A DNA stretch of 33,510 nt from an uncultured Candidatus Marinamargulisbacteria bacterium (lineage in GTDB: Bacteria > Margulisbacteria > Marinamargulisbacteria > GCA-2716485 > CALLLO01): the NCBI GenBank assembly GCA_938082985.1, contig CALLLO010000112.1, forward strand, positions 1 through 33,510, in the 5' to 3' direction. A program made the position numbers and the translations under genes. The notes under the pieces are model-generated. The model did no database searches, was not told the origin of the DNA, and was given only the letters and a program-made list of their open reading frames with translations. Position 1 is the stretch's first letter. Each line of letters begins with the position of its first letter. This document shows positions 3,349 to 31,809 of the stretch, piece after piece.

Positions 3349-3425
3349 GGACGATTAGCTCAGTTGGTTAGAGTGCTTGCTTGACATGCAAGAGGTCACA
3401 GGTTCGAATCCCGTATCGTCCACCA
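3349..3425 (+). tRNA. tRNA-Val (anticodon GAC), CCA encoded
   Basis: Cloverleaf read by hand. The acceptor is GGACGAT/ATCGTCC. The D arm is AGCTCAGTTGGTTAGAGT. The anticodon stem is CTTGC/GCAAG with loop TTGACAT. The T arm is CAGGTTCGAATCCCG. The discriminator is A, followed by CCA. Confidence 0.9.
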
Positions 3426-3452: not shown

Positions 3453-5768
3453 CTAATATCCTTTTTCCCAGTTAATGAGTTGTTCTATCTTAAGTTCATA
3501 TTCAGCGGAATAGGCTAAGAACTCTGCTAGTTGGCTACGGCTGACGTAGCTATTTTCGTCTTCGCCACTATCTTGGTAGTTGATGATACCTGCGTTACTT
3601 AATAGGAAAATGGTTTCAGATAGTGTGAGGGCCTGCTCAGGCTTGAATGTGCCATCAGGGAATGCAAAGATAAGCCCTGACTCTACAGCTGTTTGAATAT
3701 AGGAGGCAAAGGGATGGTTGGCAGGGACGTCATTAAATAAATTAGTCGTCACTTCTGGGAGCGTGTCAGAATCACCTCCATTAGCGAGAACCATAAGTTT
3801 AGCTACATATTGTCTAGTAACAGGTTTGATGGGATAAAACTTCCCATCATCGTCACCGGTAAGGATACCTAATGTGGCTAGAAATTCGATTTCGCGTCGC
3901 CCTCGTACACGGTCATTAAGATCGGGGAATGTAGCGAGTCTTAAGATTCTCATAGAATAATCTACAATGGTTTCGTTTAAACCTTTGACGGAGAGGCGTA
4001 CATTGTTTTTCCCAGGATCTAGGTCTATGGGAATAGCGAACTGTTGTGAGTTGTCTATATAGACAGGGTTGTCATTTATACTGAGGTTCAGGATCATATC
4101 TGATACACGGCCTAAAAACCGAATACTTGGCTTATAGTGTACATATTTATCTTGCGGGAATTCGACTGATGCGAAGAAGGGGTATTCGATAAAATTGGTG
4201 TCGTTACCCGCTTCATCTACGACGCGTAATTGGAGGTTGAACATATCTTTGGGTAGACGATCGGGGCTTAACTCTTCCGGTGTTTTAATTTCTGCAATCC
4301 AATGAGTAGGTTCGTCATGGAGTTGTGCTGTTTCAGGGACGGAGTCTATTTCTGACATGGATTTAGGGGTATCTTTGTAAAAGGTAAGAGGGGTATTGAG
4401 GATGGATGCTTCTATGAGGTCTAAATTTTCATTAGATTTAATTTTAATAACTAAGTAGTCGTTATCTGGCAAGACTTGCACCTCTAATTTTGGGGCCTGA
4501 GTATCGGAATAGATAACGATAGGATAGGATTCTAGTGACGTATCTTTGTCCAAGCTATATGAGCGAAGATAAATAAGATTCCGCCCTTCTTTTAGTGGGA
4601 AGTCCTTAATAGCCCATTTTCCATATTTATCAGAGACAACAGTTCTGGATAAGGATTGATTATTATAGAATCTAATCGCTGTGTTTCTCGGTCCTACGCC
4701 TTTGAGATTCATGTTTTGTTTATATGTAATTAAAAATTCTTCAGGTGGAGATAATATTCTAGGTGCCTTGGGGCGTGATTCTCCTAGTATTGAAAAAGAG
4801 ACACTGTGGTTGGGCTCGGCTTCGAAGGGAGCGGCATTTTGGGAGTAATTATAATCTAAACGCAAACTAAAATCTCTATTTCCAAAGCCTATAGCGACAC
4901 GTTCGAAAATAATGCCGGTACCAAGGTTTAAGCGTGTGAAATCTGATGAGCCACGTAGTACTAATGAATCTTGTAGATAATATTCTGCACCAAGTGTGAG
5001 CCCGTCTATGCCGTTGTGCCCATATAATGACACTTTTTCGTCTAAAATATCTGCGCGCAGGCCGGCGTAAAATTCAAAGGGGAGTAATCCTTCATTTCCA
5101 GTCTCTGAATGTTTCATTGGGGGGGCGAGTATATTTTGTATAGCGATACCTGCGTGTAGTTTGTCTATCAGTCCGTATTCGATATAGTGGGTACCTATTG
5201 CGCCTAAATCTAGACTGAAGGTACTAGCTGAAGCGTTGAGGGTGTAAAATTGTGTCATTTTCATAGAGCTTCCGATTGAGAGTGCATCAAAGCCATATAA
5301 ATCATAAAACGTGGTGCCGGCACCTAAAGCTCCGACTCTATATCCACTGCTAAATGTGCTTATTGCTCTTGGGTTACCTTGTGCATCTAAGATTGTTTCG
5401 GGGATGCCGGATAAGCTTACTTCTCCGTATGAGAGTCCAAACATAATATGTTGCATCATAGTTTTGTTGTCCCGGATTGGGATACGAAGATCTAAGGGTA
5501 GTCCGATGTTGATGAGGGTGTAGTCAAATTCGTCAAGTAATTTCTTTGAACTCAGGGATAGGGGCATAGATTCCACATCGCCTAATGATGCTGGGTTTGC
5601 ATACATGGCACCTATATCGCCTGCTATCACTGGGTTTGTAATGCCTAATGATGAGATTCTTGAACTTACCATTTGTGTTTGGGGATTGCTGATTGTACGT
5701 GAAATGCCTTGGGAGATACTAGGGACACATAAAAGTAATAATATTGTGACGATGTATCTCATAGTCAA
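3453..5768 (-). CDS. Outer-membrane protein: signal peptide, PorV/FadL-like beta-barrel (aa ~22-330), Ig-like spacer modules (aa ~335-610) and C-terminal SLH repeats (aa ~613-755)
   Basis: The signal peptide is MTMRYIVTILLLLCVPSISQG. The motif SRISSLGITNPVIAGDIGAMYANPASLG resembles the N-terminal hatch motif of PorV/FadL-type barrels. Alternating amphipathic strands follow (FSLRLDYNYSQ, HSVSFSILG). SLH-like repeats are FPDLNDRVRGRREIEFLATLGILTGDDDGKFYPIKPVTRQYVAKL and FNDVPANHPFASYIQTAVESGLIFAFPDGTFKPEQALTLSE. The start overlaps the upstream stop (ATGA). Confidence 0.7.
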   Translation of the reverse strand: MTMRYIVTILLLLCVPSISQGISRTISNPQTQMVSSRISSLGITNPVIAGDIGAMYANPASLGDVESMPLSLSSKKLLDEFDYTLINIGLPLDLRIPIRDNKTMMQHIMFGLSYGEVSLSGIPETILDAQGNPRAISTFSSGYRVGALGAGTTFYDLYGFDALSIGSSMKMTQFYTLNASASTFSLDLGAIGTHYIEYGLIDKLHAGIAIQNILAPPMKHSETGNEGLLPFEFYAGLRADILDEKVSLYGHNGIDGLTLGAEYYLQDSLVLRGSSDFTRLNLGTGIIFERVAIGFGNRDFSLRLDYNYSQNAAPFEAEPNHSVSFSILGESRPKAPRILSPPEEFLITYKQNMNLKGVGPRNTAIRFYNNQSLSRTVVSDKYGKWAIKDFPLKEGRNLIYLRSYSLDKDTSLESYPIVIYSDTQAPKLEVQVLPDNDYLVIKIKSNENLDLIEASILNTPLTFYKDTPKSMSEIDSVPETAQLHDEPTHWIAEIKTPEELSPDRLPKDMFNLQLRVVDEAGNDTNFIEYPFFASVEFPQDKYVHYKPSIRFLGRVSDMILNLSINDNPVYIDNSQQFAIPIDLDPGKNNVRLSVKGLNETIVDYSMRILRLATFPDLNDRVRGRREIEFLATLGILTGDDDGKFYPIKPVTRQYVAKLMVLANGGDSDTLPEVTTNLFNDVPANHPFASYIQTAVESGLIFAFPDGTFKPEQALTLSETIFLLSNAGIINYQDSGEDENSYVSRSQLAEFLAYSAEYELKIEQLINWEKGY
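5119..5125. repeat. G7/C7 homopolymer inside the barrel-SLH gene (codons for A-P-P)
   Basis: Seven consecutive G on the plus strand, counted directly. G/C runs of 7 or more are otherwise absent from the window except at 24534-24541. Confidence 0.9.
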
Positions 5769-8700
5769 AAGATAGATAGCTTGGTTACTTTATAATACTC
5801 ATTACCGTTATTATCTTCAGCTATGACTTTGCATAGGTAGATGCCAGGCGCTAATGCACTGGTGTTAGCACCCAGTTCAAATTTATTAGAGCCGATAGTT
5901 GTTGCTTCTTGAGTATCTGTAAACACTTGTATTCCATTATGATCAAAAAGATACATGGTAACATTGCACGGTTGTGTGGTGAAGTAGCCTAAAATTAGTG
6001 CGCTCTCCCCCATTTTATATGGGTTTGGGTAAAATAAGACGTTGGAGAGTTCGACGCTGCTATTTATTTCGTAGGAAAACGTTGCTTGTGTGAGGGAGCT
6101 TACTCCATCATTAACATCGAGTTCTATTGTTCCATCTACAGCTCCGAGCTGTTCTATAGTTAAGATGCCGGTGGTTTCGTCGTAATAGTAGGTGCCTGAG
6201 GAGTTTTCATTGATGCTTGTACGTGTGAGGGTGTTTCCATTTAGACTAAGATACAAACTTGATTGGTTGATGTAACTCCCTTTATCTTTGAATGTAATAA
6301 TTAAAGAATCCCCAGCTTTAAGTGCCATGCCTTGACTAAATGTATCTGTAGCTGTTCGCTTATATTCTACGCTAGCTATATAAGACGGAAATACCCAAGA
6401 ATAATCATCATAAGCTGCCACAAGGCTGAGTTCGGGAGGATTTTTAACAGCGGAGGCATAACTTGTATTATTTCGATATCTAGATAATAAGATAGAGGCT
6501 GTTGCGGGGGTCATTTGGCCATCTACAGTATATTTAATAGAAGCGTCTAAATAACCAATACCTTCGGATTCTTGGCTTCTATGACGGATCTCAAATTCAA
6601 AGGTTTCACTGTTTCCTGCCGCAATATCATAGGGGTACTCAATCTCACTGCTGTCAGCGGGTTCAATATTAAATTCATAAGAGATATCACTCCCACCTAG
6701 GCTATCTAGATAGATACGTGGGTGGATACTTTCTATACTGAGAATTGAACTAGAATCGTTTGTAAACTCAAGGCTGACATTGAGAGTTGTTGTCGCTGCA
6801 TCGTCAGGATTTGAGATGGATATATCGATAGTGTCAAAAAAGGCTCTATAGACAGCTACATTTGCAGAATCAACAGGTAAAGGGAGTTGGCCAACTAGTA
6901 CGACTGATGTTGCTGCATCACTATCTGTTTCAATATCATTTATTTGAGCCTTTATGAGTTGGATACTAATTTGGTCCTCGTCAGTGAGATCTTCGTCTCG
7001 ACCTTCGTCATTTTGACCTATGTTGTAAAGAAGGAGGAGCCGGTTTATTCCTGAGTTTAGATCTATGCCAAATATATCTATGCTAGTTGTCTCTAAAAAA
7101 GAGTCTGTAGAATTAATGAATTCATCAGAAGATGAATCAAATTCTCCGTATGGGGGATTATCTCTGTAAATCCAAACCTTACTGACCCCGGTATTATCGT
7201 CCAAGAATGATCCCCCACTATTAAGAATACGTATGTTGGTTGAAGTAAAGGCTACTTTGGTTGCATCAAGTTCTAGACTTAGCATAGGGACCTGGAGTTG
7301 ACCCAAGTATACTGAGTCGGGGCTTATATCCAGGATATTTATTATAGATAGGTTACTTTCAACTAAGGTTACCTCAGCTTCTGGACTGGCATAGGCGCCA
7401 TTTGTGTTGTTGACACCGCTTAGCCCTAGGGCTGTTGATGTAACTTCGCCATCTATTGTGATACTAGCGGTTGCGAAGAGTTCCCCTAGACTAGAATCGG
7501 ACACAAAGGTTGTATTTCCTGAAGCGTTTACCCCTCCATTAATTGTTTTCCCGAAGGTATAGGTGACGAAAAATACTTCGTCGTTGTTACTTGGATAGCC
7601 TAATGCTTCACTGTCGTAGCTGGAAATGATTATACCTTGTTCTTCGGATGTGTTTAAAAAGGGTACGACGACGACGTCACTTTGATTGGTAATGCCTGTA
7701 ATGTCGTTAATCATTCCTAGATCCACATCAGCCACTTGTGTGTCAGCGTCTGAGTAGGATTTGTCTCCGTCAGAGTCTCTGTATACAGACACATTTATCA
7801 CATCTTCATCATCTGTGTTAATTCGAAAAGGAACGGTACCCTCATTAAAGAGTGTAATGGCATTGACCGTGATATCTGTGTGGTTGGATCGAAGGGTAAA
7901 GCTTAGCATGGGTACGGTTGTTCCGCTTCCAAAGCTATCCCCATCGGGCACAATACTTTCAATATCTTCTAGAGAGAGACCTGCTACTAGAGATTCTGCA
8001 GACGCTTCGCGTGTTTGACTGGACAAGGGCCATTCAATCGTTAATCCTGAATTTTCGCCATACCCTATAAAGGAATAAAGTTGTGCAGATATTGTCGTGT
8101 CTTCTGTTACAGATATGTCTTCTCCTACATCATAGACGATATAAAAGTTTTTGGTGGTGCCTGTTGAGATTCCTTGAAAGTCTGTAGGGTAACTTAATCC
8201 ATCTGTTCCAAATGAAAAATCAAAATTTGAGGCGCTTGGAAAATAATATTCGTCAGAATCGTCGATCGATATAGTGTGAATAGTATTGTCGCTTTCAAAC
8301 AATGTATCAAAAGGATAAAAATTAGCTAAAAGGAGACGCGCTTCAACGACGCCATCTGTTGCTGAGTCTGCTGTTGCGTAATTGTTAGACTCATTTTTAA
8401 GCGAAAATGTCATGGGGGATTCTGATAGTATAGATTCATCGGATAGGGATATAGACACATAGAGCATAGGTATATTAGTTTGTCCTGGGAGAACAACAGA
8501 TGGAGCTACATCCACAATAGTGATTTTTTTGATCCCTGTAACAATGACAGAATTACTTATGGGGATAGTTGTATCAGTATGAGCACTGAGGGATAAATCA
8601 TTTGTGCTGCTGGTACCCTTAATCTCCGTTAATGTTAAATTTGTTTCACCCCCTAGGGTAGCCGTTGCACCAAAATCGTATAGAATTATGAACGCTGTGG

Positions 8701-9130
8701 CATTGGCACTTGTTATAGTTTGACTTGTAAACTCAAACTGGCCTGATTGAATTGAACTTGCAGAGAAGGGTAGAGAATCCAAAAGAATATCATCACTATC
8801 TTTAATTCCGTCAAAGCCAGTATCTAAATAAAGATAGGCATTGGAAATGCCCTTTCCAAAATCAACATCGTCGGATTGGTTTTCAATGTTAATACCATTT
8901 ATAGAGATGTCATCATCTGTAGTTTCCAGTGTGAAATATATCATCACGACGGACGACTGCCCTTGAGGCGCGTGAGTACGGTCTGCCGATGATTCTGCAA
9001 TACTTAAAGCGGCTCCAATTGGAGTCGCGAGCATGAGCAAGAATAAAATAGAAAAAAGTTTTATATATCGCATTTTTTTTAAAAGAGTTCGCCGAAAATT
9101 TATAGTGAAATTACTCTTAAAGTGTAGCAT
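5765..9130 (-). CDS. Large secreted acidic repeat protein with a T9SS-type (Por secretion tail / FlgD-Ig-like) C-terminal domain
   Basis: The ORF is 1121 codons. The likely start is the ATG at 9073 (MRYIKLFSILFLLMLATPIGAA signal peptide) rather than 9130. The protein is D/E/S/T/N-rich with few K/R. It has four divergent internal modules (aa ~55-735). The C-terminal ~90 aa read LFYPNPYKMGESALILGYFTTQPCNVTMYLFDHNGIQVF...LAPGIYLCKVIAEDNNGNEYYKVTKLSIF, which fits the YPNP...I.y......v...i.d..G..v........G.......l..G.Y......... pattern of T9SS CTDs. Confidence 0.75.
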   Translation of the reverse strand: MLHFKSNFTINFRRTLLKKMRYIKLFSILFLLMLATPIGAALSIAESSADRTHAPQGQSSVVMIYFTLETTDDDISINGINIENQSDDVDFGKGISNAYLYLDTGFDGIKDSDDILLDSLPFSASSIQSGQFEFTSQTITSANATAFIILYDFGATATLGGETNLTLTEIKGTSSTNDLSLSAHTDTTIPISNSVIVTGIKKITIVDVAPSVVLPGQTNIPMLYVSISLSDESILSESPMTFSLKNESNNYATADSATDGVVEARLLLANFYPFDTLFESDNTIHTISIDDSDEYYFPSASNFDFSFGTDGLSYPTDFQGISTGTTKNFYIVYDVGEDISVTEDTTISAQLYSFIGYGENSGLTIEWPLSSQTREASAESLVAGLSLEDIESIVPDGDSFGSGTTVPMLSFTLRSNHTDITVNAITLFNEGTVPFRINTDDEDVINVSVYRDSDGDKSYSDADTQVADVDLGMINDITGITNQSDVVVVPFLNTSEEQGIIISSYDSEALGYPSNNDEVFFVTYTFGKTINGGVNASGNTTFVSDSSLGELFATASITIDGEVTSTALGLSGVNNTNGAYASPEAEVTLVESNLSIINILDISPDSVYLGQLQVPMLSLELDATKVAFTSTNIRILNSGGSFLDDNTGVSKVWIYRDNPPYGEFDSSSDEFINSTDSFLETTSIDIFGIDLNSGINRLLLLYNIGQNDEGRDEDLTDEDQISIQLIKAQINDIETDSDAATSVVLVGQLPLPVDSANVAVYRAFFDTIDISISNPDDAATTTLNVSLEFTNDSSSILSIESIHPRIYLDSLGGSDISYEFNIEPADSSEIEYPYDIAAGNSETFEFEIRHRSQESEGIGYLDASIKYTVDGQMTPATASILLSRYRNNTSYASAVKNPPELSLVAAYDDYSWVFPSYIASVEYKRTATDTFSQGMALKAGDSLIITFKDKGSYINQSSLYLSLNGNTLTRTSINENSSGTYYYDETTGILTIEQLGAVDGTIELDVNDGVSSLTQATFSYEINSSVELSNVLFYPNPYKMGESALILGYFTTQPCNVTMYLFDHNGIQVFTDTQEATTIGSNKFELGANTSALAPGIYLCKVIAEDNNGNEYYKVTKLSIF

Positions 9131-9141
9131 AGTTGGTAGAC

Positions 9142-9864
9142 TTAAGTAATCTCAAAATTTGAGTAGACTTCTTGAACATCGTCGTCATCGTCAAGCTTGT
9201 CTATAAGTGAGAGTATTTTTTCACCTTGTTCTTCAGTGAGAGTGACGGTGGTGGTGGGGATTTTTGTGACTGCTGCCGTATCATACTCTAGTTTAGCTTC
9301 GTCAAAGACGTCTCTTGCCGCGTCGAATGCCTCGGGAGCTGTAATCACTTCTATAGATCCATCCTCTTGGGTTTCAAGGTTTTCAGCGTCGGCGGACATG
9401 GCCGCTTCCATAAGGGTGTCTTCATCTGTCTCAGGTGAAAATAAGAAGTAGCCTTTGCTTGAAAATAAGTAGGCGACAGCTCCTTGTGTGGCGATAGACC
9501 CTCCGCCTCTACTTATGATGGCTTTTACATTTGCGATGGTTCTGTGTCTGTTGTCTGTGAGTGTGCTAATCATCATGGCGACACCATGTGACGCATAGGC
9601 TTCATAGGTTAACTCTTCTAGTTCAGCGTCGGCGCCTCCGCCTTCACCTTTCTGAATAGCACGTTTGATATTTTCGTTAGGCATATTACATGCTTTTGCT
9701 TTTTGTAGAGCTAAGCGAAGTCTGCCATTCATGAGACAGTCGTTGCCCCCAAGCTTTACAGCCATAAGGATTTCTCGTGCTACTTTAGAAAAAACTTTAC
9801 CCTTTTGGGCGTCTGTTTTTGCTTTTTTGTGTTTTATGGTGCTCCACTTACTATGTCCCGACAT
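9142..9864 (-). CDS. yebC: YebC/PmpR-family DNA-binding regulator
   Basis: The N-terminus MSGHSKWSTIKHKKAKTDAQKGKVFSK and the 240-aa length are diagnostic of the family. Confidence 0.9.
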   Translation of the reverse strand: MSGHSKWSTIKHKKAKTDAQKGKVFSKVAREILMAVKLGGNDCLMNGRLRLALQKAKACNMPNENIKRAIQKGEGGGADAELEELTYEAYASHGVAMMISTLTDNRHRTIANVKAIISRGGGSIATQGAVAYLFSSKGYFLFSPETDEDTLMEAAMSADAENLETQEDGSIEVITAPEAFDAARDVFDEAKLEYDTAAVTKIPTTTVTLTEEQGEKILSLIDKLDDDDDVQEVYSNFEIT

Positions 9865-16047: not shown

Positions 16048-18048
16048 ATGGTTTTAGAAAATAAATTTATTAAAGTGGGTCTTTTCGCGGCACTATTTGT
16101 CTCGTTTCTTGTGAGCATTAATATTGGGGTTAGACGCTTTAATTTTGAAGAGCAGAACAATAAAGTGGAAGTAGCCGTGTCGTATAACGCTATTAAGAGA
16201 CTCTCTATTAGGGGAGGGAGTATTGAAACTAATACACTTCTTGAAAGATTAAAAAAAGAGAGTGGTATAACCTCCGTTGCACTAGAAGAAGATACCTTGG
16301 AGTATTTTGTTAATGAGGGAAAGGTTACTGTTTTAAAAGGGTCTGAGATCATGAACATGTATCGTGTGGGGCATGTGAATCGCTACTTGTTAACGCATTT
16401 ATATAAGCAAATAAAAGTAAAGCCGGATCGGTTTTATCTTATTATTGACGAGAAATCAGATTATGAACAAATTCGTGATTTTTTGAATGTAGAATTTGGG
16501 AAAGATAATGTGAGACGTGTTGGTAGTTTAAACATCTTAGAAGTGGTAGATGATAGAGATGATCTGATGCAGTTAGGTCTAGGCGTATCGAAACAGCATA
16601 TTAAGGATGTTTTGGCACTGGGATTGAGACCTATTATTCGCTTAAAAAATAGTAATAGGTTGAGCACGTCTGCCATTAAGCAAAAAATACTGAGTTTTGT
16701 GAGTGAGGTACCGGAAGCTACCATTATTTTTGAAGGGAAAACTGTCTTGGGCTATCCTAGTCAGATTGAGTATCTGCAGGAAAAGGTAAAGGATAATGAC
16801 CTGAAGATTGGGATTGTAGAATTTAGTAGTCAGTTAGGTGACCATAATTTGGCGAAGGGCTTACCCGAACATGTGTTGCGGGTACATAGTATTGGTGAGG
16901 ACGAACTCAGATACATGCCAGCTAAAAAAGCAAAGGCTCGCTATCTCAGGGCGGCCAAAGAACGTGGCATAAAAATTTTATTTGTTTATCCGTATTTCCA
17001 AGTATTTGAAGATACGCCTATTGTAGAGTTTAATATTGCCTTTATTAAAGACATTACGGAGGGCTTAGAGGTGTTTGGCTTTGAGGTAGCCCCAGTTTTG
17101 GAGTTGCCTGTAGACTCTTATCACTCTGCAAAAAAATGGGAGATTTTTCTATTAAGTTTAGGCGTCTTAACGACGATTTTATTTTTAATACATTATTATA
17201 TTCCTTTATCTTTATTACGTACGAGTATTATTTATATAGGGTTTATTTTATCTTTTTATGCCTGTCTAAAATTTAACCTCCTAACGTCGTGGAACCAGGC
17301 TATGGCCGTGATGGTAGCTGTTTTATTTCCTAGTTTGGCCGTGATATCACAATTTCCAACAGAGCAAGATCTGATTAGGAATAAAGGCCGGTTTTTATCG
17401 GCTATTTTATATTTTTTAAAGTTGTTGGGTATGTGTATGGTAGGGGCTTTTCTTATTGTTGGGTTTTTGTCGGATATTAAATTTGTTTTTGGAATTGAAC
17501 GCTTTGCAGGCGTGAAGATATCTTTTATTTTACCGCTCATTTTTGTGAGTATTTATTTTTACTTGAGACCGCATAGGATTACCTCGATGTTTTTTATTTT
17601 AAAACGCTTGTTTTATTCACCCGTACGCACTGTAGGTCTTCTAGCGATTACAGTATTTTTTGCCTCTGTTTTAGTGTTGGTTTTACGCAGTGGGAATTAC
17701 ATTCCTATGCCGTCTATCTTTTTGGAAGAGAGGTTTAGAGCCTGGTTAGAAGCTGTCTTGTTGGTACGGCCTCGAACAAAGGAATTTTTAATTGGCTATC
17801 CGTTTTTGTTGTTTGCGTATATGAAGATAGATAAAGAGCTATCAAGACAGTGGTTATGGTTTTTTAATGTAATCGGTACTGTAGCTTTAATTTCTGTTGT
17901 TAATTCATTTTGTCATGTTCATACCCCTTTAAGTATTTCTATCTATAGGACAGTCTTGGGGATGCTTCTTGGCTTTGTTATTGGGCATATTTATATTATT
18001 GTTTTTAATGGTCTGCAGCGTCTTTTTAAATCACGCACTCATGCTTAA
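16048..18048 (+). CDS. Uncharacterised polytopic membrane protein: N-terminal TM, ~340-aa extracytoplasmic domain, ~9 C-terminal TM helices
   Basis: The hydrophobicity pattern was read from the translation. No catalytic motif was recognised. From memory the architecture resembles DUF5693-type envelope proteins; this was not verified. Confidence 0.6.
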   Translation: MVLENKFIKVGLFAALFVSFLVSINIGVRRFNFEEQNNKVEVAVSYNAIKRLSIRGGSIETNTLLERLKKESGITSVALEEDTLEYFVNEGKVTVLKGSEIMNMYRVGHVNRYLLTHLYKQIKVKPDRFYLIIDEKSDYEQIRDFLNVEFGKDNVRRVGSLNILEVVDDRDDLMQLGLGVSKQHIKDVLALGLRPIIRLKNSNRLSTSAIKQKILSFVSEVPEATIIFEGKTVLGYPSQIEYLQEKVKDNDLKIGIVEFSSQLGDHNLAKGLPEHVLRVHSIGEDELRYMPAKKAKARYLRAAKERGIKILFVYPYFQVFEDTPIVEFNIAFIKDITEGLEVFGFEVAPVLELPVDSYHSAKKWEIFLLSLGVLTTILFLIHYYIPLSLLRTSIIYIGFILSFYACLKFNLLTSWNQAMAVMVAVLFPSLAVISQFPTEQDLIRNKGRFLSAILYFLKLLGMCMVGAFLIVGFLSDIKFVFGIERFAGVKISFILPLIFVSIYFYLRPHRITSMFFILKRLFYSPVRTVGLLAITVFFASVLVLVLRSGNYIPMPSIFLEERFRAWLEAVLLVRPRTKEFLIGYPFLLFAYMKIDKELSRQWLWFFNVIGTVALISVVNSFCHVHTPLSISIYRTVLGMLLGFVIGHIYIIVFNGLQRLFKSRTHA

Positions 18049-18733
18049 CCAACATCCACGCCCACTAAGAGTATTTGAAGAGACGGCTCATGTAAGTTTT
18101 ACAAACAAAGCCTTACTTTCTCAAGCTTTTACACATAGTTCTTACGCCAAAAGAGGCACCGATAATGAGAGGTTAGAATTTTTTGGGGATGCTGTTTTAA
18201 AGCTTATTGTTTCGGAGTATCTCTATTTTAAATACCCGCATTTGGATGAAGGTGATTTAACCAAAAAAAGAGCTCAGATTGTATCAGATCGCTTACTTTC
18301 AGGCTTGTCTAGTGCCTTGTCTATAGGTAGTTATATGTTGTTTTCTGCGGGTGAAGCTGGGACTGGCGGGGCGAAAAAACCATCTAATTTGGCCAACGCT
18401 TTTGAGGCCCTCCTGGGCGCTATATATTTGGATTCTGGTTATGATGAGGCAAAGAATTTTTTTGTTGCGAGATTTGATTTGGCGCCGTCAGAGTTGAAAG
18501 TGGAGCTGCAGGACAGTAAAACAGTGTTACAAGAGTGGTCTCAAAAGTTTTGTGGAGAGTTACCTCTTTATAAAAATCTAGAGGAGACGGGTCCTGAGCA
18601 TGAAAAATGCTTCTCGGTTAGAGTGTCTGTAACTAAAAAGGGTAAAGAACTTTTTGCAAAGGGACAAGGGGTGTCTAAAAAAAGAGCTGAGCAAGAGGCG
18701 GCTAGGTGCTTGTTGGCGGATTTGTTAGGCTAG
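18041..18733 (+). CDS. rnc: Ribonuclease III
   Basis: The RNase III signature ERLEFFGDAVLKL is present, along with NLANAFEALLGAIYLD and a C-terminal dsRBD (KTVLQEWSQ...KKRAEQEAA). The preferred start is ATG 18041 (MLNQHPRPL), which overlaps the upstream stop by 8 nt. The hydrophobic 24-codon extension from 17969 is rejected. Confidence 0.9.
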   Translation: MLNQHPRPLRVFEETAHVSFTNKALLSQAFTHSSYAKRGTDNERLEFFGDAVLKLIVSEYLYFKYPHLDEGDLTKKRAQIVSDRLLSGLSSALSIGSYMLFSAGEAGTGGAKKPSNLANAFEALLGAIYLDSGYDEAKNFFVARFDLAPSELKVELQDSKTVLQEWSQKFCGELPLYKNLEETGPEHEKCFSVRVSVTKKGKELFAKGQGVSKKRAEQEAARCLLADLLG

Positions 18734-20614: not shown

Positions 20615-20688
20615 TGGGGCGTAGCCAAGTGGCAAGGCAGCGGGTTTTGATCCCGTCATCGTTGGTTCGATCCCAGCCGTCCCAGCCA
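20615..20688 (+). tRNA. tRNA-Gln (anticodon TTG), CCA encoded
   Basis: The acceptor is TGGGGCG/CGTCCCA with the U1-A72 pair typical of bacterial tRNA-Gln. The anticodon stem is GCGGG/CCCGT with loop TTTTGAT. The T arm is TGGTTCGATCCCA. The discriminator is G, followed by CCA. Confidence 0.9.
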
Positions 20689-28482: not shown

Positions 28483-29880
28483 ATGAAAGTGTTTAAAACC
28501 CCCATTAAAAAAATTTTAGTCGTTCGCTCCGATGCTATTGGAGATATGGTACTCACGCTTCCGGCTATAAAAGCCATTAAAGAAAAATTTCCTGATGCTC
28601 AGCTAACTGTTCTAGCGTCACCGGCTAATGCTCAACTACTTCCTTATTGCCCCTTTGTGGATGCCGTCATACTCAAAAAAGAGGGTAGGGGGATTAAAAA
28701 GGTATGGGGGTATTTTAAATTATTTAGGCAGCATAGCTTTGATTTGGTCATTCATTATTCAGTAAGAGATTATATCGTGTGGCCAAGTTGGTTGACGTCT
28801 AAATATCATGTTGGGGACAAGGCTCATCTTATTTTTTGGCCTATTTTTAGAAAGCTAGGGGTTTTTTATCGTAATCATAATCGGACGAATCATGTTTTGG
28901 ATTATAACTTTGAGATACTCAAAAAATTAGGGATAAAAAAAGCTACAGATACTAAGCTTGAGTTGTCTGTTCCTCAAGATATTAAAGATGACGGTAAAGC
29001 TTTATTAAGGCAGGCTGGTGTGGATATACATAAGCCGGTGATAGGGATTCATTGTGGGGTGGGATTTGGGAATAAGGCGATTGAAGCGGGGAAATATGTG
29101 AGCTTTATTCAAGAAGCTCTTAATCAACATGATGTTCAGTTTGTGTTGACTGGCTATACCGAGAAAGAAAAAGAAGCTATTTCCTACATTCTTGAACACT
29201 GTTCAGAATCGGTAAGCTATGTGGAAACAAAAACGTTGGATGAATTGTTGGGTGTACTCTCACATTATTCTGTTTATATAAGCGTAGATACCGGGCCCTT
29301 TCATATCGCAGCTTCGCTAGGGATCCCTATGCTGGCTATCTTTCCTACGAAGCGGGTGAAGCCTGTAAGTTGGGGCCCCTTGGGCACGCGTCATTTTGTT
29401 GTTAGGGCAAATCGACGTTGTTTACATGATTGTCCTCATCAAGGATGTCCGTATACGGTTTGTTCCGATGATATTTCTGTTAGAGATATGCTTGAGAAGT
29501 TTAAGGCTTTGTTGGTGGGGCAAGGCGTGTCGGATGTTGGAGATCAGTTGGTGTATTGGTTTAAAGAATCTTTGCATACGCTCGTTGTGTATGACGATGA
29601 CACTAAAGAAGACGCGGATGTGCTGTGTAAGAGTCTTCATGAATGGGGGTTTTATGCGATAAAGACACGTAAGGTAGATCTGAAAATATTAAGAGAAAAT
29701 GATATTTCTATTATTAGGAACTTAACAATTAAGAAAAAGCTGAGGTTTTTTTATTTGGCACAACGGGCCAATAAATTTTTGCATCATCCTCCTTTATGTG
29801 ATCATAGCCGAGAGGGAGTGAGTTCGGAGGCTGAGTGGGTCAATAGGTATAAAAAAATGTTTCATTTGAGACTCTTTTAA
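28483..29880 (+). CDS. Glycosyltransferase family 9 (LPS heptosyltransferase-like) with a ~125-aa C-terminal extension
   Basis: KKILVVRSDAIGDMVLTLPAIKAIKEKFPDAQLTVLA is the typical GT9 N-terminus. VSVDTGPFHIAASLGIPMLAIF matches the D(T/S)GP.HlAaA.g.P motif. Residues after about 340 have no recognised domain. Confidence 0.8.
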   Translation: MKVFKTPIKKILVVRSDAIGDMVLTLPAIKAIKEKFPDAQLTVLASPANAQLLPYCPFVDAVILKKEGRGIKKVWGYFKLFRQHSFDLVIHYSVRDYIVWPSWLTSKYHVGDKAHLIFWPIFRKLGVFYRNHNRTNHVLDYNFEILKKLGIKKATDTKLELSVPQDIKDDGKALLRQAGVDIHKPVIGIHCGVGFGNKAIEAGKYVSFIQEALNQHDVQFVLTGYTEKEKEAISYILEHCSESVSYVETKTLDELLGVLSHYSVYISVDTGPFHIAASLGIPMLAIFPTKRVKPVSWGPLGTRHFVVRANRRCLHDCPHQGCPYTVCSDDISVRDMLEKFKALLVGQGVSDVGDQLVYWFKESLHTLVVYDDDTKEDADVLCKSLHEWGFYAIKTRKVDLKILRENDISIIRNLTIKKKLRFFYLAQRANKFLHHPPLCDHSREGVSSEAEWVNRYKKMFHLRLF

Positions 29881-29980
29881 GCTGCAATTTCCTTTCGGCC
29901 GTTGTTTCTTTATCAAATAAGTCGTAGTCTTAGAGAGAAGAAATCGCTTCGATTGTTCAGTGGCGATTAAGGAAAAAACT

Positions 29981-30175
29981 ATGAAAAAAAATTATATCGT
30001 TGTCTTGCAAAACCAATACTTATTATTTTTTGCAGATAAACCTAAGAAAAAAGGGAATTATTTGAGCAATGTAAGATTGTTTGAAATGAATGAAACGACT
30101 AAAACTAAAGATATTTGCGCGTGGAGCAAGAATTATGAAGGGTCTGGGTTTTCAGAAGTTGCGGATTGGGAATAA
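29981..30175 (+). CDS. Small hypothetical protein (64 aa)
   Basis: ATG 29981 is preceded by AAGGA at 8-nt spacing. The track ORF opens at GTG 29960. It is followed by an intrinsic terminator at 30222-30247. No homology was recognised. Confidence 0.4.
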   Translation: MKKNYIVVLQNQYLLFFADKPKKKGNYLSNVRLFEMNETTKTKDICAWSKNYEGSGFSEVADWE

Positions 30176-30221
30176 GCGTTAGGTCGTTAATTTAAGACAT
30201 AAACTTTTTTTTAACAAAACA

Positions 30222-30247
30222 AGGGTGCTTTCGGGCACTCTTTTTTT
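30222..30247 (+). terminator. Rho-independent terminator
   Basis: The stem is AGGGTGC / GCACTCT (7 bp, one G-U), the loop is TTTCGG, and a T-run follows. Confidence 0.6.
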
Positions 30248-30327
30248 GTAGGTGTCGCTAGAGTCACATTCTATTGAGATTGTCTCGGCGCCGAAACAAT
30301 TGAGACTCATCTTGGCCTATTTCAGGA

Positions 30328-31042
30328 CACTAGTATCCGGTAAAAATAAAATAACTTCAGCATAAAACAGGCAAAAAAAAACACGTCGCAGACGTGCATT
30401 TAAAAGATAAAATAGGCTATCCTCAGTATTCGACTAAAAACGCGGAGGAATAGCCTATGACTAAATTTAGCACAGTTTTAAATCAATTATTACAATTTTT
30501 GGCCCAACAAGAGTTTGAGAGGTCAATAAAACAGTTTAAATGAGACCGATATGTAAAATATTTCACCCGCTGACTCAGCACACGACATTTACATTTAAAA
30601 ACCCTAAACAAGGTAAAAAATTACCTGGAAAACTTCGCCTAATTGGCTATTATGACCATGAAAAAAAACGTATACTTTTTTAACCCATAATTTTAAATTA
30701 GCCGCCATTACCATTGCCAAGATTTATAATGCGCGTTGGATGATTGACTTGTTCTTCAAATGGATTAAGCAAAATCTTAAAATTAAGTCTTTTTTAGGCA
30801 GGTCCAAAAACGCCATACTTTCTCAAATTTGGGTCGCCATGATTTATATACTTTTGTTGGCTTATATTAAATTTCAATCCCGATTTTTCTTTCCTATTCT
30901 GAAATTAGCTCGTTTTATTGATGAAACTCTCTTTTTTTCGTCAACATCTTATTGAAATCATGGGGTTAGCTCCTCAAAAAATTCAGGATTTATCGCCGAT
31001 TGGGCAGCTTTTACTCTGCTGATTTTTTACTGGACACTAGTG
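30328..31042 (+). mobile_element. Internally deleted, non-autonomous IS4-family (DUF4372-type transposase) element, 715 bp
   Basis: The terminal inverted repeats CACTAGTATCCGGTAAAAA (30328-30346) and its counterpart at 31024-31042 match at 17/19 positions. An SD (GGAGGA) precedes ATG 30457, which encodes MTKFSTVLNQLLQFLAQQEFERSIKQFK*DRYVKYFTR*, the N-terminus typical of DUF4372/IS4 transposases. The C-terminal part (about 30612-30955) reads ...KLRLIGYYDHEKKRILF/FLTHNFKLAAITIAKIYNARWMIDLFFKWIKQNLKIKSFLG, with a frameshift in a T6 run at 30676-30681. The catalytic core is missing. Confidence 0.7.
30373..30396 (-). terminator. Minus-strand terminator-like hairpin inside the left end of the IS remnant
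   Basis: The minus strand reads CACGTC tgc GACGTG followed by T9. The stem is only 6 bp. Confidence 0.35.
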
Positions 31043-31220
31043 AAAACGAGTCAGTTATATAAGAAACATATTGAGATATCTATAGAGAACACCTTTGTTG
31101 TATTCGAGCCCTTAATTATTGTTATTAGGGGAGTCTTTGTGTTGATGCTTGTGTTAGGTATTTTTTATGGGTAGGATTAACTCATTCACAATAAAAAATT
31201 CAAATAAAAAGAGGGATAAT

Positions 31221-31622
31221 ATGATGAAGGAAAAGATTTAAAAAGGGTTTACGTTAGTAGAGCTCATTGTCGTTATTGCAATTTTAGGTATAGTAGCCGT
31301 TGTGGCCGTTCCTAAATATTACGATACGACTACAACAGCTAAGTTAAATACACTTCAAGGCCAACTAGGAACGATCCGTGGAGCACTCTCACTTTATTAT
31401 GCTGACCAAGCCTTATCAACAGGAACAGCAACATATCCTACAACGCTCTCTGCTAGTTTATTTAGTGATGGAACTATCCCAGTAGACCCCTATGATTCTG
31501 CTTCTACAGTAACGGTAACTGCGGAAGATCCTATTACAACCTTTTCGGGAGTAGGTGGCTGGGTTTATAACGCGGCGACAGGGGAAGTCAGAGCTAATGT
31601 TACGGGGCATACCGCCCTCTAA
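31221..31622 (+). pseudogene. Type IV pilin / pseudopilin gene with a nonsense codon in the leader peptide
   Basis: An SD (GAGGGA) precedes ATG 31221, which reads MMKEKI-TAA(31239)-KGFTLVELIVVIAILGIVAVVAVP. This is the prepilin cleavage/methylation motif G|FTLVE. No start codon is possible between the TAA and the cleavage-site Gly. Track ORF 31302-31622 is only the mature-domain part. Confidence 0.65.
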
Positions 31623-31809
31623 AAAGTGGCTCTCATCTCCACGGCTAAACAAGTCAAAAGCACCCTCAAACAACTACAATCGCAAGCTATTCGTACACAA
31701 AAAATGAAAAAATTAGTGTTTAGTCTCAGATTGGTATTACGACAATAATTTAGGCATACTGACACTCTCAGCCCAGTCACAGGTAGATGAGATTACGATT
31801 ACGTTTTAA
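31623..31809 (+). pseudogene. Remnant of a minor pilin (GspH/FimT-like), N-terminally truncated and frameshifted
   Basis: KVALISTAKQVKSTLKQLQSQAIRTQKMKKLVFS resembles the helix that follows the hydrophobic N-terminus in GspH/FimT-type pseudopilins. A second frame ends in GILTLSAQSQVDEITITF*. There is no start codon and no methylation motif. Confidence 0.3.

What the first reader, a model, noticed from the sequence alone, without database searches (positions are those of the whole stretch)
3453..9130. Translationally coupled pair: T9SS-type-CTD cargo plus a PorV-like barrel fused to SLH repeats, a candidate self-contained surface-display/tether module
The upstream gene encodes a 1121-aa, signal-peptide-bearing, strongly acidic repeat protein. 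Its last ~90 aa follow the T9SS type-A C-terminal sorting / FlgD-Ig-like pattern (LFYPNPY...ILGY...VTMYLFDHNGIQVF...PGIYLCKV...KLSIF). Its stop overlaps (ATGA at 5765-5768) the start of a 771-aa protein. That protein begins with a PorV/FadL-like beta-barrel (hatch-like ...GDIGAMYANPASLG motif, amphipathic strands), continues with Ig-like modules, and ends in SLH repeats. In T9SS organisms PorV is the outer-membrane shuttle that binds cargo CTDs. SLH tethering of the outer membrane to the wall is a trait of diderm Terrabacteria. I know of no described protein that joins a PorV-like barrel to SLH, and no other T9SS gene is in the window. The pair could be a minimal cargo-plus-receptor/anchor system that builds an S-layer-like coat tied to the cell wall.
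Basis: partly seen in the sequence, partly recalled or inferred. Interest (0 to 1): 0.78.

Follow-up and report, generated by a model that had tools for sequence, protein, structure and literature searches.

The report
CTD surface protein with wall-tethered PorV-like anchor
In Margulisbacteria, a large acidic protein ending in a type IX secretion-style sorting domain is always encoded right before an outer-membrane PorV-like barrel that is fused to cell-wall-binding SLH repeats; this undescribed pairing probably pins a surface protein through the outer membrane to the wall, in a phylum where type IX secretion has not been reported.

Summary
Two abutting minus-strand genes encode A (5765-9130) and B (3453-5768).

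- **A:** acidic (pI 4.05), all-beta, with four homologous N-terminal modules. Its C-terminal domain matches the T9SS type A sorting domain: above the NCBIfam cutoff when scanned alone, below Pfam's.
- **B:** a confident 14-strand barrel with an N-terminal plug, three Ig-like domains and three SLH repeats. The best PDB match, by fold and by sequence, is F. johnsoniae PorV.
- **Junction:** TTGA, not ATGA. The likely ATG start of B lies 2 nt after A's stop.

The pair is adjacent in all 31 other distinct loci examined. These span Marinamargulisbacteria, Ca. Termititenax and other Margulisiibacteriota. One distant genome encodes the barrel and the Ig+SLH part as separate neighbouring genes, and further CTD/barrel pairs exist.

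Best reading: A's retained CTD docks on B's extracellular loops, while B's periplasmic Ig-SLH arm binds the wall. This works like PorE-PorP-PG1035 or PorU-PorV, merged into one SLH-based tether.

How A crosses the outer membrane is unknown. Whether the genome has core T9SS genes could not be tested here.

I rate it a new variant of a known kind, interest 0.68.

The parts
5765..9130 (-). Gene A: secreted, acidic, all-beta surface-protein candidate. The longest ORF is 1121 aa. The probable true start is ATG at 9073 (Met20), giving 1102 aa.
   Evidence: ORF. Orthologues start at the position of Met20, and the sequence is. pI 4.05. The model is all-beta with pLDDT 65. No Pfam family matches apart from the C-terminal domain.
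9002..9073 (-). Probable Sec signal peptide of A (MRYIKLFSILFLLMLATPIGAALS, residues 20-43).
   Evidence: Read directly from the sequence. This hydrophobic N-terminus is conserved in orthologues. No signal-peptide predictor was run.
6995..9007 (-). Four homologous beta-sandwich modules M1-M4 of A (residues ~42-712). They belong to no described family.
   Evidence: hhalign between the modules gives probability 98.4-99.4% and E 1e-15 to 6e-22. Strand pattern in the model.
6071..6955 (-). Non-repeat middle region of A (residues ~726-1020). All-beta, modelled with low confidence.
   Evidence: no similarity to M1-M4 or to the CTD.
5768..6043 (-). C-terminal sorting-type domain (CTD) of A, residues ~1030-1121, ending T-K-L-S-I-F. 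The stop codon is at 5765-5767.
   Evidence: - TIGR04183: 28.5 bits against a cutoff of 23 when scanned alone, and 22.2 bits in the full-length protein.
- PF18962: 25.3 bits against 27.
- All 9 orthologues tested match both models.
- It is the best-conserved part of A.
- A basic residue at -5 is present in 30 of 30 orthologues.
5759..5768 (-). A/B junction: ...TTT TGA CT ATG A... A TTG start would overlap A by 4 nt. The ATG start lies 2 nt after A's stop.
   Evidence: In orthologues the junction is mostly TAATG.
3453..5768 (-). Gene B: PorV-like barrel, three Ig-like domains and three SLH repeats. 771 aa from the TTG start, 769 aa from the ATG at 5762.
   Evidence: Model pLDDT 85.
5706..5768 (-). 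Probable signal peptide of B (MTMRYIVTILLLLCVPSISQG).
   Evidence: Read from the sequence. These residues have low pLDDT in the model (residues 1-21).
4764..5705 (-). PorV/PorQ-like outer-membrane domain of B (residues 22-335). It has an N-terminal plug segment with the invariant N58-P59 motif and 14 long beta strands (residues 70-330).
   Evidence: - NF033709 PorV_fam: E 1.1e-8, 35 bits, below the cutoff of 90.
- DSSP strand list of the model.
- Foldseek top hit 8gl6_F: E 8.5e-10, TM 0.59.
- The only PDB profile hit is PorV.
- Invariant columns.
3936..4763 (-). Three Ig-like beta-sandwich domains of B (residues ~337-421, 428-518 and 527-610). They are the inferred periplasmic spacer.
   Evidence: Model. 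Weak Pfam Big_3_2, Cadherin-like and Glucodextran_B hits. Foldseek Ig-string hits.
3456..3935 (-). Three SLH repeats of B (residues ~612-771), the inferred wall-binding end. The stop codon is at 3453-3455.
   Evidence: PF00395: E 2e-16, 60 bits against a cutoff of 20.8. PDB profile hits to Sap, SbsB, OmpM-type and SlpA SLH domains. Helical pattern in the model.
9142..9864 (-). yebC/TACO1-family gene, a conserved upstream neighbour of the pair. It is context only and has not been shown to be functionally linked.
   Evidence: The gene order yebC, A, B is seen.

Best explanation
A and B form a cognate pair: a surface protein and its anchor, which spans the envelope.

- **B in the outer membrane.** B inserts as a 14-strand barrel of the PorV/PorQ family. 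A barrel with an even number of strands has both ends in the periplasm. B's C-terminal arm of three Ig-like domains is therefore periplasmic and carries the SLH repeats to the peptidoglycan or its attached polymer. This tethers the outer membrane to the wall.
- **A at the surface.** A is exported by Sec. It is an acidic protein built of beta-sandwich modules. It ends up on the cell surface, held non-covalently because its uncleaved C-terminal sorting-type domain docks on the extracellular loops of B's barrel. PorU sits on PorV, PorZ on PorQ, PorA on PorV, and type-B CTD proteins on PorP/SprF in the same way.
- **Stoichiometry.** Tight stop/start coupling keeps the two made together.

**Shown:** the domain identities, the fold, the adjacency across the phylum, the split-gene variant and the paralogous pairs.

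**Inferred:** the topology, the CTD-barrel docking, the surface location of A and the SLH ligand.

**Unknown:** how A crosses the outer membrane.
For: **Domain identities**
- The CTD matches TIGR04183 in all 9 orthologues tested (28.5 bits against 23 for the window's copy). It also aligns to the CTD ends of the PorU and PorZ models.
- A basic residue at -5 is invariant in 30 of 30 orthologues. It sits where type A CTDs have a conserved Lys that contacts PorV (PMC10994853).
- The barrel's best fold match and its only PDB sequence match are both PorV. The model is confident: pLDDT 85, 14 strands plus a plug.
- SLH is well above threshold, and it matches periplasmic SLH domains of the OmpM and SlpA tethers.

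**Genomic linkage**
- The CTD gene abuts the barrel-SLH gene in all 31 other distinct loci, including Ca. Termititenax.
- In L030 the order is CTD protein, stand-alone barrel (PorV_fam 99.9 bits, above the cutoff of 90), then a separate Ig+3xSLH protein. The same functions are linked there without being fused.
- Further CTD/barrel pairs occur in L012 and L022.

**Co-variation**
- Across 23 genomes, both A's CTD (partial r 0.37-0.39) and A's body (partial r 0.67) co-vary with B's barrel. They do not co-vary with B's Ig or SLH domains, after controlling for YebC.

**Known precedent**
- A surface CTD protein, a cognate 14-strand barrel and a peptidoglycan binder form the PorE-PorP-PG1035 complex (PMC9143113).
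Against: - No direct evidence that the CTD binds B. A complex could not be modelled with these tools.
- B itself scores below the curated PorV/PorQ cutoff (35 bits against 90). The CTD is below Pfam's gathering score, and below the NCBIfam cutoff when the full-length protein is scanned.
- The CTD fold is shared with FlgD-Ig domains: 7 of 9 orthologues also hit FlgD_ig weakly.
- In known systems the CTD reaches PorV only through the SprA/Sov translocon. About half of the buried interface is with SprA. No translocon was seen here.
- The barrel is also fused to an SppA protease, with no CTD partner next to it. It can therefore act as a plain membrane anchor.
- The mirror-tree signal could reflect a shared fast rate of surface-exposed parts rather than contact.
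- The model of A is only moderate (pLDDT 65).
Confidence: 0.55

Rival explanations
1. This is ordinary T9SS cargo and a PorV variant. The genome encodes a full type IX secretion system elsewhere (Sov/SprA, PorK/L/M/N, PorU and others). A is exported through it, handed to B as a PorV shuttle, and then cleaved and attached or released.
For: The CTD and the barrel both match T9SS families. Several CTD proteins and several PorV/PorQ-like barrels occur per genome, as in T9SS organisms. Only about 20 kb per genome was seen.
Against: - T9SS is described as confined to the Fibrobacteres-Chlorobi-Bacteroidetes group (abstracts of PMC11205867 and PMC12398890).
- No paper links it to Margulisbacteria.
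- No T9SS family appears in the window or among the neighbours listed for five other contigs.
- A wall-tethered barrel cannot shuttle between a translocon and an attachment complex.
- Strict one-to-one gene pairing is not how type A cargo is organised.
Confidence: 0.12
2. B is simply this phylum's outer-membrane-to-wall tether, possibly doubling as a FadL-like uptake channel, as an analogue of OmpM. A is a co-transcribed envelope protein whose C-terminal Ig-like domain does not dock on B. A might, for example, be a periplasmic or secreted adhesin using another anchor.
For: SLH plus a barrel in one chain is the logic of OmpM, SlpA and Mep45. The same barrel serves as an anchor for an SppA protease with no CTD partner. 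The CTD also resembles FlgD-Ig domains.
Against: - 100% adjacency and stop/start coupling across a phylum, down to 26-40% identity.
- Independent CTD/barrel pairs with stand-alone barrels.
- The CTD is the most conserved part of A and keeps the PorV-contacting basic residue.
- A co-varies with the barrel specifically.
Confidence: 0.15
3. This is an autonomous two-gene secretion and display system. B's barrel, alone or with BAM, is itself the route by which A crosses the outer membrane, in the manner of two-partner secretion. The CTD is the recognition signal and then stays docked.
For: Cargo-transporter gene pairing with translational coupling resembles TpsA/TpsB operons. No other translocon was seen near any of the pairs.
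Against: From established knowledge, a plugged 14-strand FadL/PorV-type barrel has no known protein-conducting pore. In T9SS, PorV only receives the cargo from SprA. No POTRA or Omp85 features were found. There is no energy source.
Confidence: 0.1

Closest known systems
T9SS attachment-complex pairs PorU-PorV and PorZ-PorQ, and PorA-PorV (Porphyromonas gingivalis, Flavobacterium johnsoniae)
   Same: A type A-like C-terminal domain on a secreted protein, and a 14-strand barrel of the PorV/PorQ family. The CTD is proposed to stay docked on the barrel's outer face. The CTD of A aligns to the CTD ends of the PorU and PorZ models. The barrel's best PDB match is PorV.
   Different: The known barrels are stand-alone proteins of about 350-400 aa with no periplasmic arm. 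They act within a machine of 20 or more components and receive cargo from SprA/Sov. They are known only in the FCB group. B is fused to three Ig-like domains and SLH, and it occurs in a Terrabacteria phylum.
PorE-PorP-PG1035 complex and SprB-SprF (type B CTD cargo with cognate PorP-like barrels)
   Same: A surface CTD protein is held by its own 14-strand barrel. The gene for the barrel lies next to the cargo gene. The barrel is bridged to peptidoglycan by a periplasmic wall-binding module, and non-mobile cargo is thereby fixed to the wall (PMC9143113).
   Different: Those systems use type B CTDs, PorP/SprF-family barrels and a separate lipoprotein, PorE, with an OmpA_C-like domain. No PorP/SprF or type B CTD model appeared among the profile hits here. 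Here the barrel and the wall binder are one chain, and the wall binder is SLH.
OmpM / Mep45 / SlpA-type SLH-barrel tethers of diderm Terrabacteria
   Same: One polypeptide joins an outer-membrane barrel to a periplasmic SLH domain that holds the outer membrane to the wall. B's SLH matches the OmpM and SlpA SLH structures. Margulisbacteria are reported to have OmpM homologues.
   Different: The domain order is reversed, with SLH at the C-terminus rather than the N-terminus. The spacer is made of Ig-like domains instead of a coiled-coil stalk. The barrel is a plugged 14-strand PorV-type barrel rather than a porin. A dedicated CTD-bearing partner gene is present.
FadL/TodX-family hydrophobic-compound channels
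   Same: A 14-strand barrel with an N-terminal plug that carries an NPA-type motif. N58-P59 are invariant and A60 is present in at least 90% of orthologues. That the motif is typical of FadL is from my own knowledge.
   Different: No FadL profile hit was found. The closest profiles and the closest structure are PorV/PorQ. FadL proteins have no CTD partner and no SLH arm.

Membership tests
T9SS type A C-terminal sorting domain (TIGR04183 / PF18962) | Profile match at or above the curated cutoff | tested here: inconclusive
   - NCBIfam TIGR04183: 28.5 bits against 23 when the domain is scanned alone, but 22.2 bits in the full-length protein.
- Pfam PF18962: 25.3 and 18.2 bits against 27.
- All 9 orthologues match both models, with a best E of 1.4e-8.
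T9SS type A C-terminal sorting domain (TIGR04183 / PF18962) | Located at the extreme C-terminus of a protein with a Sec signal peptide | tested here: met
   The CTD ends at the last residue in every orthologue. A hydrophobic N-terminal signal is seen in the sequence.
T9SS type A C-terminal sorting domain (TIGR04183 / PF18962) | Conserved basic residue in the last strand, which contacts PorV | tested here: met
   K or R at position -5 in 30 of 30 orthologues. Its role in known CTDs is taken from PMC10994853. The structural equivalence of the two positions was not checked.
T9SS type A C-terminal sorting domain (TIGR04183 / PF18962) | Export depends on the T9SS translocon, and the CTD is removed by PorU | not testable with these tools
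   This needs the whole genome and experiments. No PorU-like catalytic region was seen: only the CTD end of the PorU model is matched.
PorV/PorQ family (NF033709) | Profile match at or above the curated cutoff | tested here: not met
   The window's B scores 35 bits against 90 (E 1.1e-8). Related barrels do pass: L012 at 103.2 bits and L030 at 99.9 bits. Both are hit by B-derived profiles.
PorV/PorQ family (NF033709) | 14-strand outer-membrane barrel with an N-terminal plug, closest in fold to PorV | tested here: met
   - The model has pLDDT 85, 14 long strands at residues 70-330 and a plug segment at residues 22-68.
- The Foldseek top hit is 8gl6_F: E 8.5e-10, TM 0.59.
- That chain is PorV, which is also the only PDB profile hit.
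PorV/PorQ family (NF033709) | Binds CTDs and works with SprA/Sov | not testable with these tools
   No multimer prediction was available and there are no experiments. The only indirect support is gene pairing and co-variation.
SLH domain (PF00395) | Profile match above the gathering score, in tandem repeats | tested here: met
   60 bits against 20.8, with two stretches scored by Pfam. The model shows three helical repeats. Profile hits to the Sap, SbsB, OmpM and SlpA SLH structures.
OmpM/SlpA-type tether | N-terminal SLH, a coiled-coil stalk and a C-terminal porin barrel | tested here: not met
   The order is barrel, Ig x3, SLH. There are no long helices outside the SLH region. The barrel is PorV-like.
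Type B CTD / PorP-SprF / PorE system | Type B CTD on the cargo, a PorP/SprF-family barrel, and an OmpA_C-like wall binder | tested here: not met
   No type B CTD, PorP/SprF or OmpA model appears among the Pfam or NCBIfam hits at E up to 1. Only the cognate adjacency and the overall logic are shared.
Complete type IX secretion system | Core genes present (porK/L/M/N, sov/sprA, porT, porU, porW, porZ) | not testable with these tools
   None lie in the 33.5-kb window or in the Pfam lists of neighbours on five other contigs. Whole genomes could not be screened.
Two-partner secretion (TpsA/TpsB) | Omp85-type 16-strand transporter with POTRA domains, and an N-terminal TPS domain on the cargo | tested here: not met
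   There are no such profile hits. The barrel has 14 strands and a plug. The recognition-type domain on the cargo is C-terminal.

The most novel reading that the evidence does not exclude
Margulisbacteria lack the T9SS translocon and motor. On this reading, the CTD/PorV-like barrel pair is an autonomous docking module for sorting domains, independent of T9SS and hard-wired to the cell wall through SLH. It would be either an ancestral module from which the T9SS attachment machinery was assembled, or a transferred piece rebuilt on the Terrabacteria-style SLH tether. In either case the cargo would cross the outer membrane by a route not yet described.
Probability: 0.2. Interest if true: 0.85.

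Novelty: new variant of a known kind. Interest (0 to 1): 0.68.

Why it matters
Two research threads meet here.

- **Outer-membrane tethering.** Diderm Terrabacteria are thought to hold their outer membrane to the wall with SLH-barrel proteins of the OmpM type.
- **CTD sorting.** The CTD/PorV sorting logic is regarded as a hallmark of type IX secretion in the FCB group.

A phylum-wide protein that fuses a PorV-type barrel to SLH, and is always paired with a CTD-bearing surface protein, has several consequences:

- The CTD-barrel docking module would have a wider distribution than the secretion system it is known from.
- It offers a one-chain equivalent of the PorP-PorE bridge.
- It suggests how an uncultured phylum, including the placozoan symbiont lineage, builds and anchors its surface.
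- It gives a simple two-protein system in which CTD recognition by a PorV-like barrel could be studied apart from the translocon.

Tried and rejected
1. **Small upstream ORFs as CTD proteins.** I tested whether every small ORF upstream of an extra PorV-like barrel is a CTD protein. This is rejected: in L011, L012 and L020 they are TsaB, and the long barrel proteins there are barrel-SppA fusions.
2. **Deeper homologue search for A.** The 30-sequence alignment returned only 7 proteins and no other CTD architectures. Whether the lineage has many CTD proteins remains open, apart from those seen in the loci.
3. **Fold search with the model of A.** It gave only generic strings of Ig/MG domains (complement, alpha-2-macroglobulin, mastigoneme, an archaeal S-layer protein) with TM about 0.1. 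This says nothing about function.
4. **PDB profile search with the CTD.** It gave no significant T9SS CTD hit. PorU scored E 0.6.
5. **Promoter and terminator scan around the pair.** Counts were no higher than in shuffled sequence, so the operon boundaries are not defined.
6. **Literature.** The Margulisbacteria genome papers say nothing on envelope or secretion beyond outer-membrane vesicles and fimbria-like structures in Ca. Ruthmannia. Nothing is published on DUF5693.
7. **Complex prediction and coordinate checks.** A CTD-barrel complex could not be predicted because the tool models single chains only. Model coordinates are not exposed, so the topology rests on the strand count.

Full report
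**What is in the sequence**

Two ORFs lie head to tail on the minus strand: A at 5765..9130 (1121 aa) and B at 3453..5768 (771 aa). The junction reads ...TTT TGA CT ATG AGA.... B starts either at that TTG, giving a 4-nt overlap, or more probably at the ATG 2 nt after A's stop. The ATG start gives the 769-aa product used by the public gene call. A probably starts at Met20 (ATG at 9073), where its orthologues start. Neither correction changes the picture of two tightly coupled genes. In orthologues the usual junction is TAATG, a 1-nt overlap. The window comes from Candidatus Marinamargulisbacteria, as the named homologues and genome records show.

**Protein B**

- A structure prediction from 33 orthologues is confident, with mean pLDDT 85. 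It shows a signal peptide, a plug-like segment (residues 22-68), 14 long beta strands (70-330), three beta-sandwich domains (337-421, 428-518, 527-610) and three helical SLH repeats (about 624-764).
- SLH is well above Pfam's threshold, at 60 bits against 20.8. It matches the solved SLH domains of Sap, SbsB, OmpM-type proteins and D. radiodurans SlpA.
- The barrel matches the NCBIfam PorV/PorQ model with E 1.1e-8, but at 35 bits it stays below the cutoff of 90.
- By fold, the best PDB match is chain F of the F. johnsoniae T9SS complex 8gl6 (E 8.5e-10, TM 0.59).
- A profile of the barrel alone finds one PDB sequence, PorV, which is that same chain.
- The barrel is therefore PorV-like by two independent routes, but it is a distant member.

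**Protein A**

- The mature protein is very acidic (pI 4.05, 157 D+E against 41 K+R) and rich in Ser and Thr.
- It has four homologous N-terminal modules of about 130-185 aa (hhalign probability 98-99%). These are followed by two unrelated beta regions and then the C-terminal domain.
- No Pfam family matches the body of the protein.
- The model is all-beta but only moderate (pLDDT 65). Its fold matches are generic strings of Ig-like domains.
- The last 90 or so residues are the best-conserved part.
- Scanned alone, the CTD matches the T9SS type A sorting domain in all 9 orthologues tested. The window's copy scores 28.5 bits against the NCBIfam cutoff of 23 and 25.3 bits against Pfam's 27.
- The same orthologues also align to the CTD ends of the PorU model (9 of 9) and the PorZ model (1 of 9). 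They match FlgD-Ig more weakly.
- All 30 orthologues end in T-[KR]-[LF]-x-[IV]-[YF]. In known type A CTDs, a conserved Lys in this region bonds to PorV loop backbone (PMC10994853).

**Conservation of the pair**

- A scan of one genome per species found 28 loci with a B relative, almost all from Marinamargulisbacteria.
- In all 27 Marinamargulisbacteria loci a CTD-ending ORF stops at B's start; where complete it is 1050-1320 aa. The distant L030 has the split layout described below.
- A search of 1.84 billion representative proteins with the barrel profile found 3,223 relatives at E up to 1e-3.
- Among the best 150, the barrel is fused to SLH in several layouts: 507 aa (barrel plus SLH), about 600 aa (one Ig), about 750 aa (three Ig), and 1030-1310 aa with further Ig and SLH blocks.
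- The named fusions belong to Ca. Termititenax persephonae and Ca. Margulisiibacteriota.
- In the two such loci fetched, a CTD-ending gene again lies directly upstream.
- The pairing is therefore a trait of the phylum and not an accident of this window.

**Split and paralogous versions**

- In L030 (26% identity) the gene order is as follows:
  1. a large protein with a weak CTD;
  2. a stand-alone 341-aa barrel that passes the PorV/PorQ cutoff (99.9 bits);
  3. a separate protein of Ig-like domains plus three SLH repeats;
  4. a 234-aa CTD protein;
  5. a 1139-aa protein with an N-terminal PorV-like barrel.
- The same parts are thus kept together whether or not they are fused. This is the classic sign of a functional link.
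- L012 has a 313-aa barrel (103 bits, above the cutoff) that overlaps by 4 nt a 1922-aa protein ending in a CTD.
- L022 has a 205-aa CTD protein followed by a 316-aa barrel.
- The barrel is not always paired with a CTD. In L011, L020 and L021 it is fused to an SppA signal-peptide peptidase and sits next to tsaB.
- In this phylum the barrel is therefore a reusable outer-membrane anchor for periplasmic domains, and a subset of the barrels have CTD partners.

**Co-variation**

I compared pairwise distances of the domains across 23 genomes that have A, B and the neighbouring YebC. YebC and the other B domains were controlled for.

| Comparison | Partial r | Permutation p |
|---|---|---|
| A's CTD vs B's barrel | 0.37-0.39 | 0.0005 |
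| A's body vs B's barrel | 0.67 | 0.0005 |
| A's CTD or body vs B's Ig or SLH | -0.13 to 0.11 | not significant |

This fits A and the barrel sharing the cell surface, with the Ig-SLH arm in a different compartment. It is weak evidence, because similar evolutionary rates alone could produce it.

**How it most likely works**

- A barrel with an even number of strands has both termini in the periplasm. This is established knowledge for outer-membrane barrels, and the plug of PorV/FadL barrels enters from that side.
- B's Ig-SLH arm should therefore be periplasmic.
- Three Ig domains would span roughly the distance from the outer membrane to the wall (inference).
- SLH would bind peptidoglycan or a wall polymer, as it does in OmpM, Mep45 and SlpA.
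- A, after Sec export, would sit on the surface with its retained CTD docked on B's extracellular loops.
- The result is a continuous chain from surface protein to outer membrane to wall.
- The domain identities and the gene linkage are shown. The docking, the topology, the ligand and A's location are inferred.
- The step with no support at all is how A crosses the outer membrane.

**Comparison with what is known**

- The closest working analogue is the PorE-PorP-PG1035 complex of P. gingivalis, together with the PorP-like/PorE-like gene neighbours of F. johnsoniae.
  - There, a surface CTD protein is held by its cognate 14-strand barrel, which a peptidoglycan-binding periplasmic protein ties to the wall (PMC9143113).
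  - Those systems use type B CTDs, PorP/SprF barrels and an OmpA_C-like domain. None of these is matched here.
- By family, the parts are nearest to PorU-PorV, PorZ-PorQ and PorA-PorV. Those barrels have no periplasmic arm.
- By tether logic B resembles OmpM and SlpA, but its domain order is reversed, its spacer is made of Ig domains, and its barrel belongs to a different family.
- I therefore do not file B as a PorV or an OmpM, or A as proven T9SS cargo. The pair works like a fused PorP-PorE-cargo chain built from PorV-type and SLH parts.

**Novelty and limits**

- No paper in the library joins PorV with SLH, or Margulisbacteria with type IX secretion.
- Public names for these proteins are 'hypothetical' or 'SLH domain-containing'.
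- T9SS is described as specific to the FCB group.
- I could not screen whole Margulisbacteria genomes for the core genes. I can only say that none is in this window or among the listed neighbours on five other contigs.
- If a full T9SS is present, this is an unusual wall-tethered PorV with cognate cargo.
- If it is absent, the CTD/PorV docking module exists apart from the secretion system it is known from. That would bear on the origin of T9SS.
- I rate it a new variant of a known kind, interest 0.68.

Noticed in passing
L011 1413-3797 (-); L020 2164-4575 (-); L021 2160-4628 (-): Proteins of about 794-831 aa join an N-terminal PorV-like barrel to a C-terminal SppA (S49) signal-peptide peptidase. 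They are encoded next to tsaB. An outer-membrane barrel fused to SppA appears undescribed. A similar 832-aa Peptidase_S49 gene lies next to a TsaD-family gene on the P0016 contig.
   Followed up: partly
L030 4291-17540 (+): A distant relative of unknown phylum has a five-gene cluster: a 1862-aa Ig-rich protein with a weak CTD, a stand-alone PorV/PorQ barrel, an Ig+3xSLH protein, a 234-aa CTD protein whose last 150 residues align to the C-terminal end of PorU, and a 1139-aa protein with an N-terminal PorV-like barrel.
   Followed up: partly
L012 14253-20959 (-); L022 4157-5721 (-): These are second CTD/barrel pairs near the main pair. One is a 313-aa PorV/PorQ barrel (103 bits) overlapping a 1922-aa CTD protein. 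The other is a 205-aa CTD protein followed by a 316-aa barrel. The small CTD proteins recall PorA, which stays bound to PorV.
   Followed up: partly
L005, L007, L017, L019 (record titles): Contigs that carry the Marinamargulisbacteria-type gene pair are deposited as Rickettsiales or Actinomycetota MAGs. These are probably mislabelled or mis-binned.
   Followed up: no
window 16048-18048 (+): A 666-aa multi-pass membrane protein of family DUF5693 (437 bits). Its end overlaps the longest ORF of the RNase III gene (17969-18733). No paper in the library mentions this family.
   Followed up: partly
window 29900-31650: An ORF-poor stretch with low G+C (0.34). It contains a 71-aa ORF that looks like the tail of a transposase, and a 106-aa ORF (31302-31622) that begins like the middle of a type IV pilin (AVPKYY...) but lacks the N-terminal helix. 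These may be gene remnants.
   Followed up: no
window 28483-29880 (+): A family 9 glycosyltransferase (heptosyltransferase type) with a C-terminal extension of about 140 aa. It fits an LPS-bearing outer membrane.
   Followed up: no
window 3349-3425 (+) and 20615-20688 (+): tRNA-Val (GAC) lies 27 nt beyond the end of gene B on the opposite strand, so B and the tRNA converge. tRNA-Gln (TTG) lies further on.
   Followed up: no
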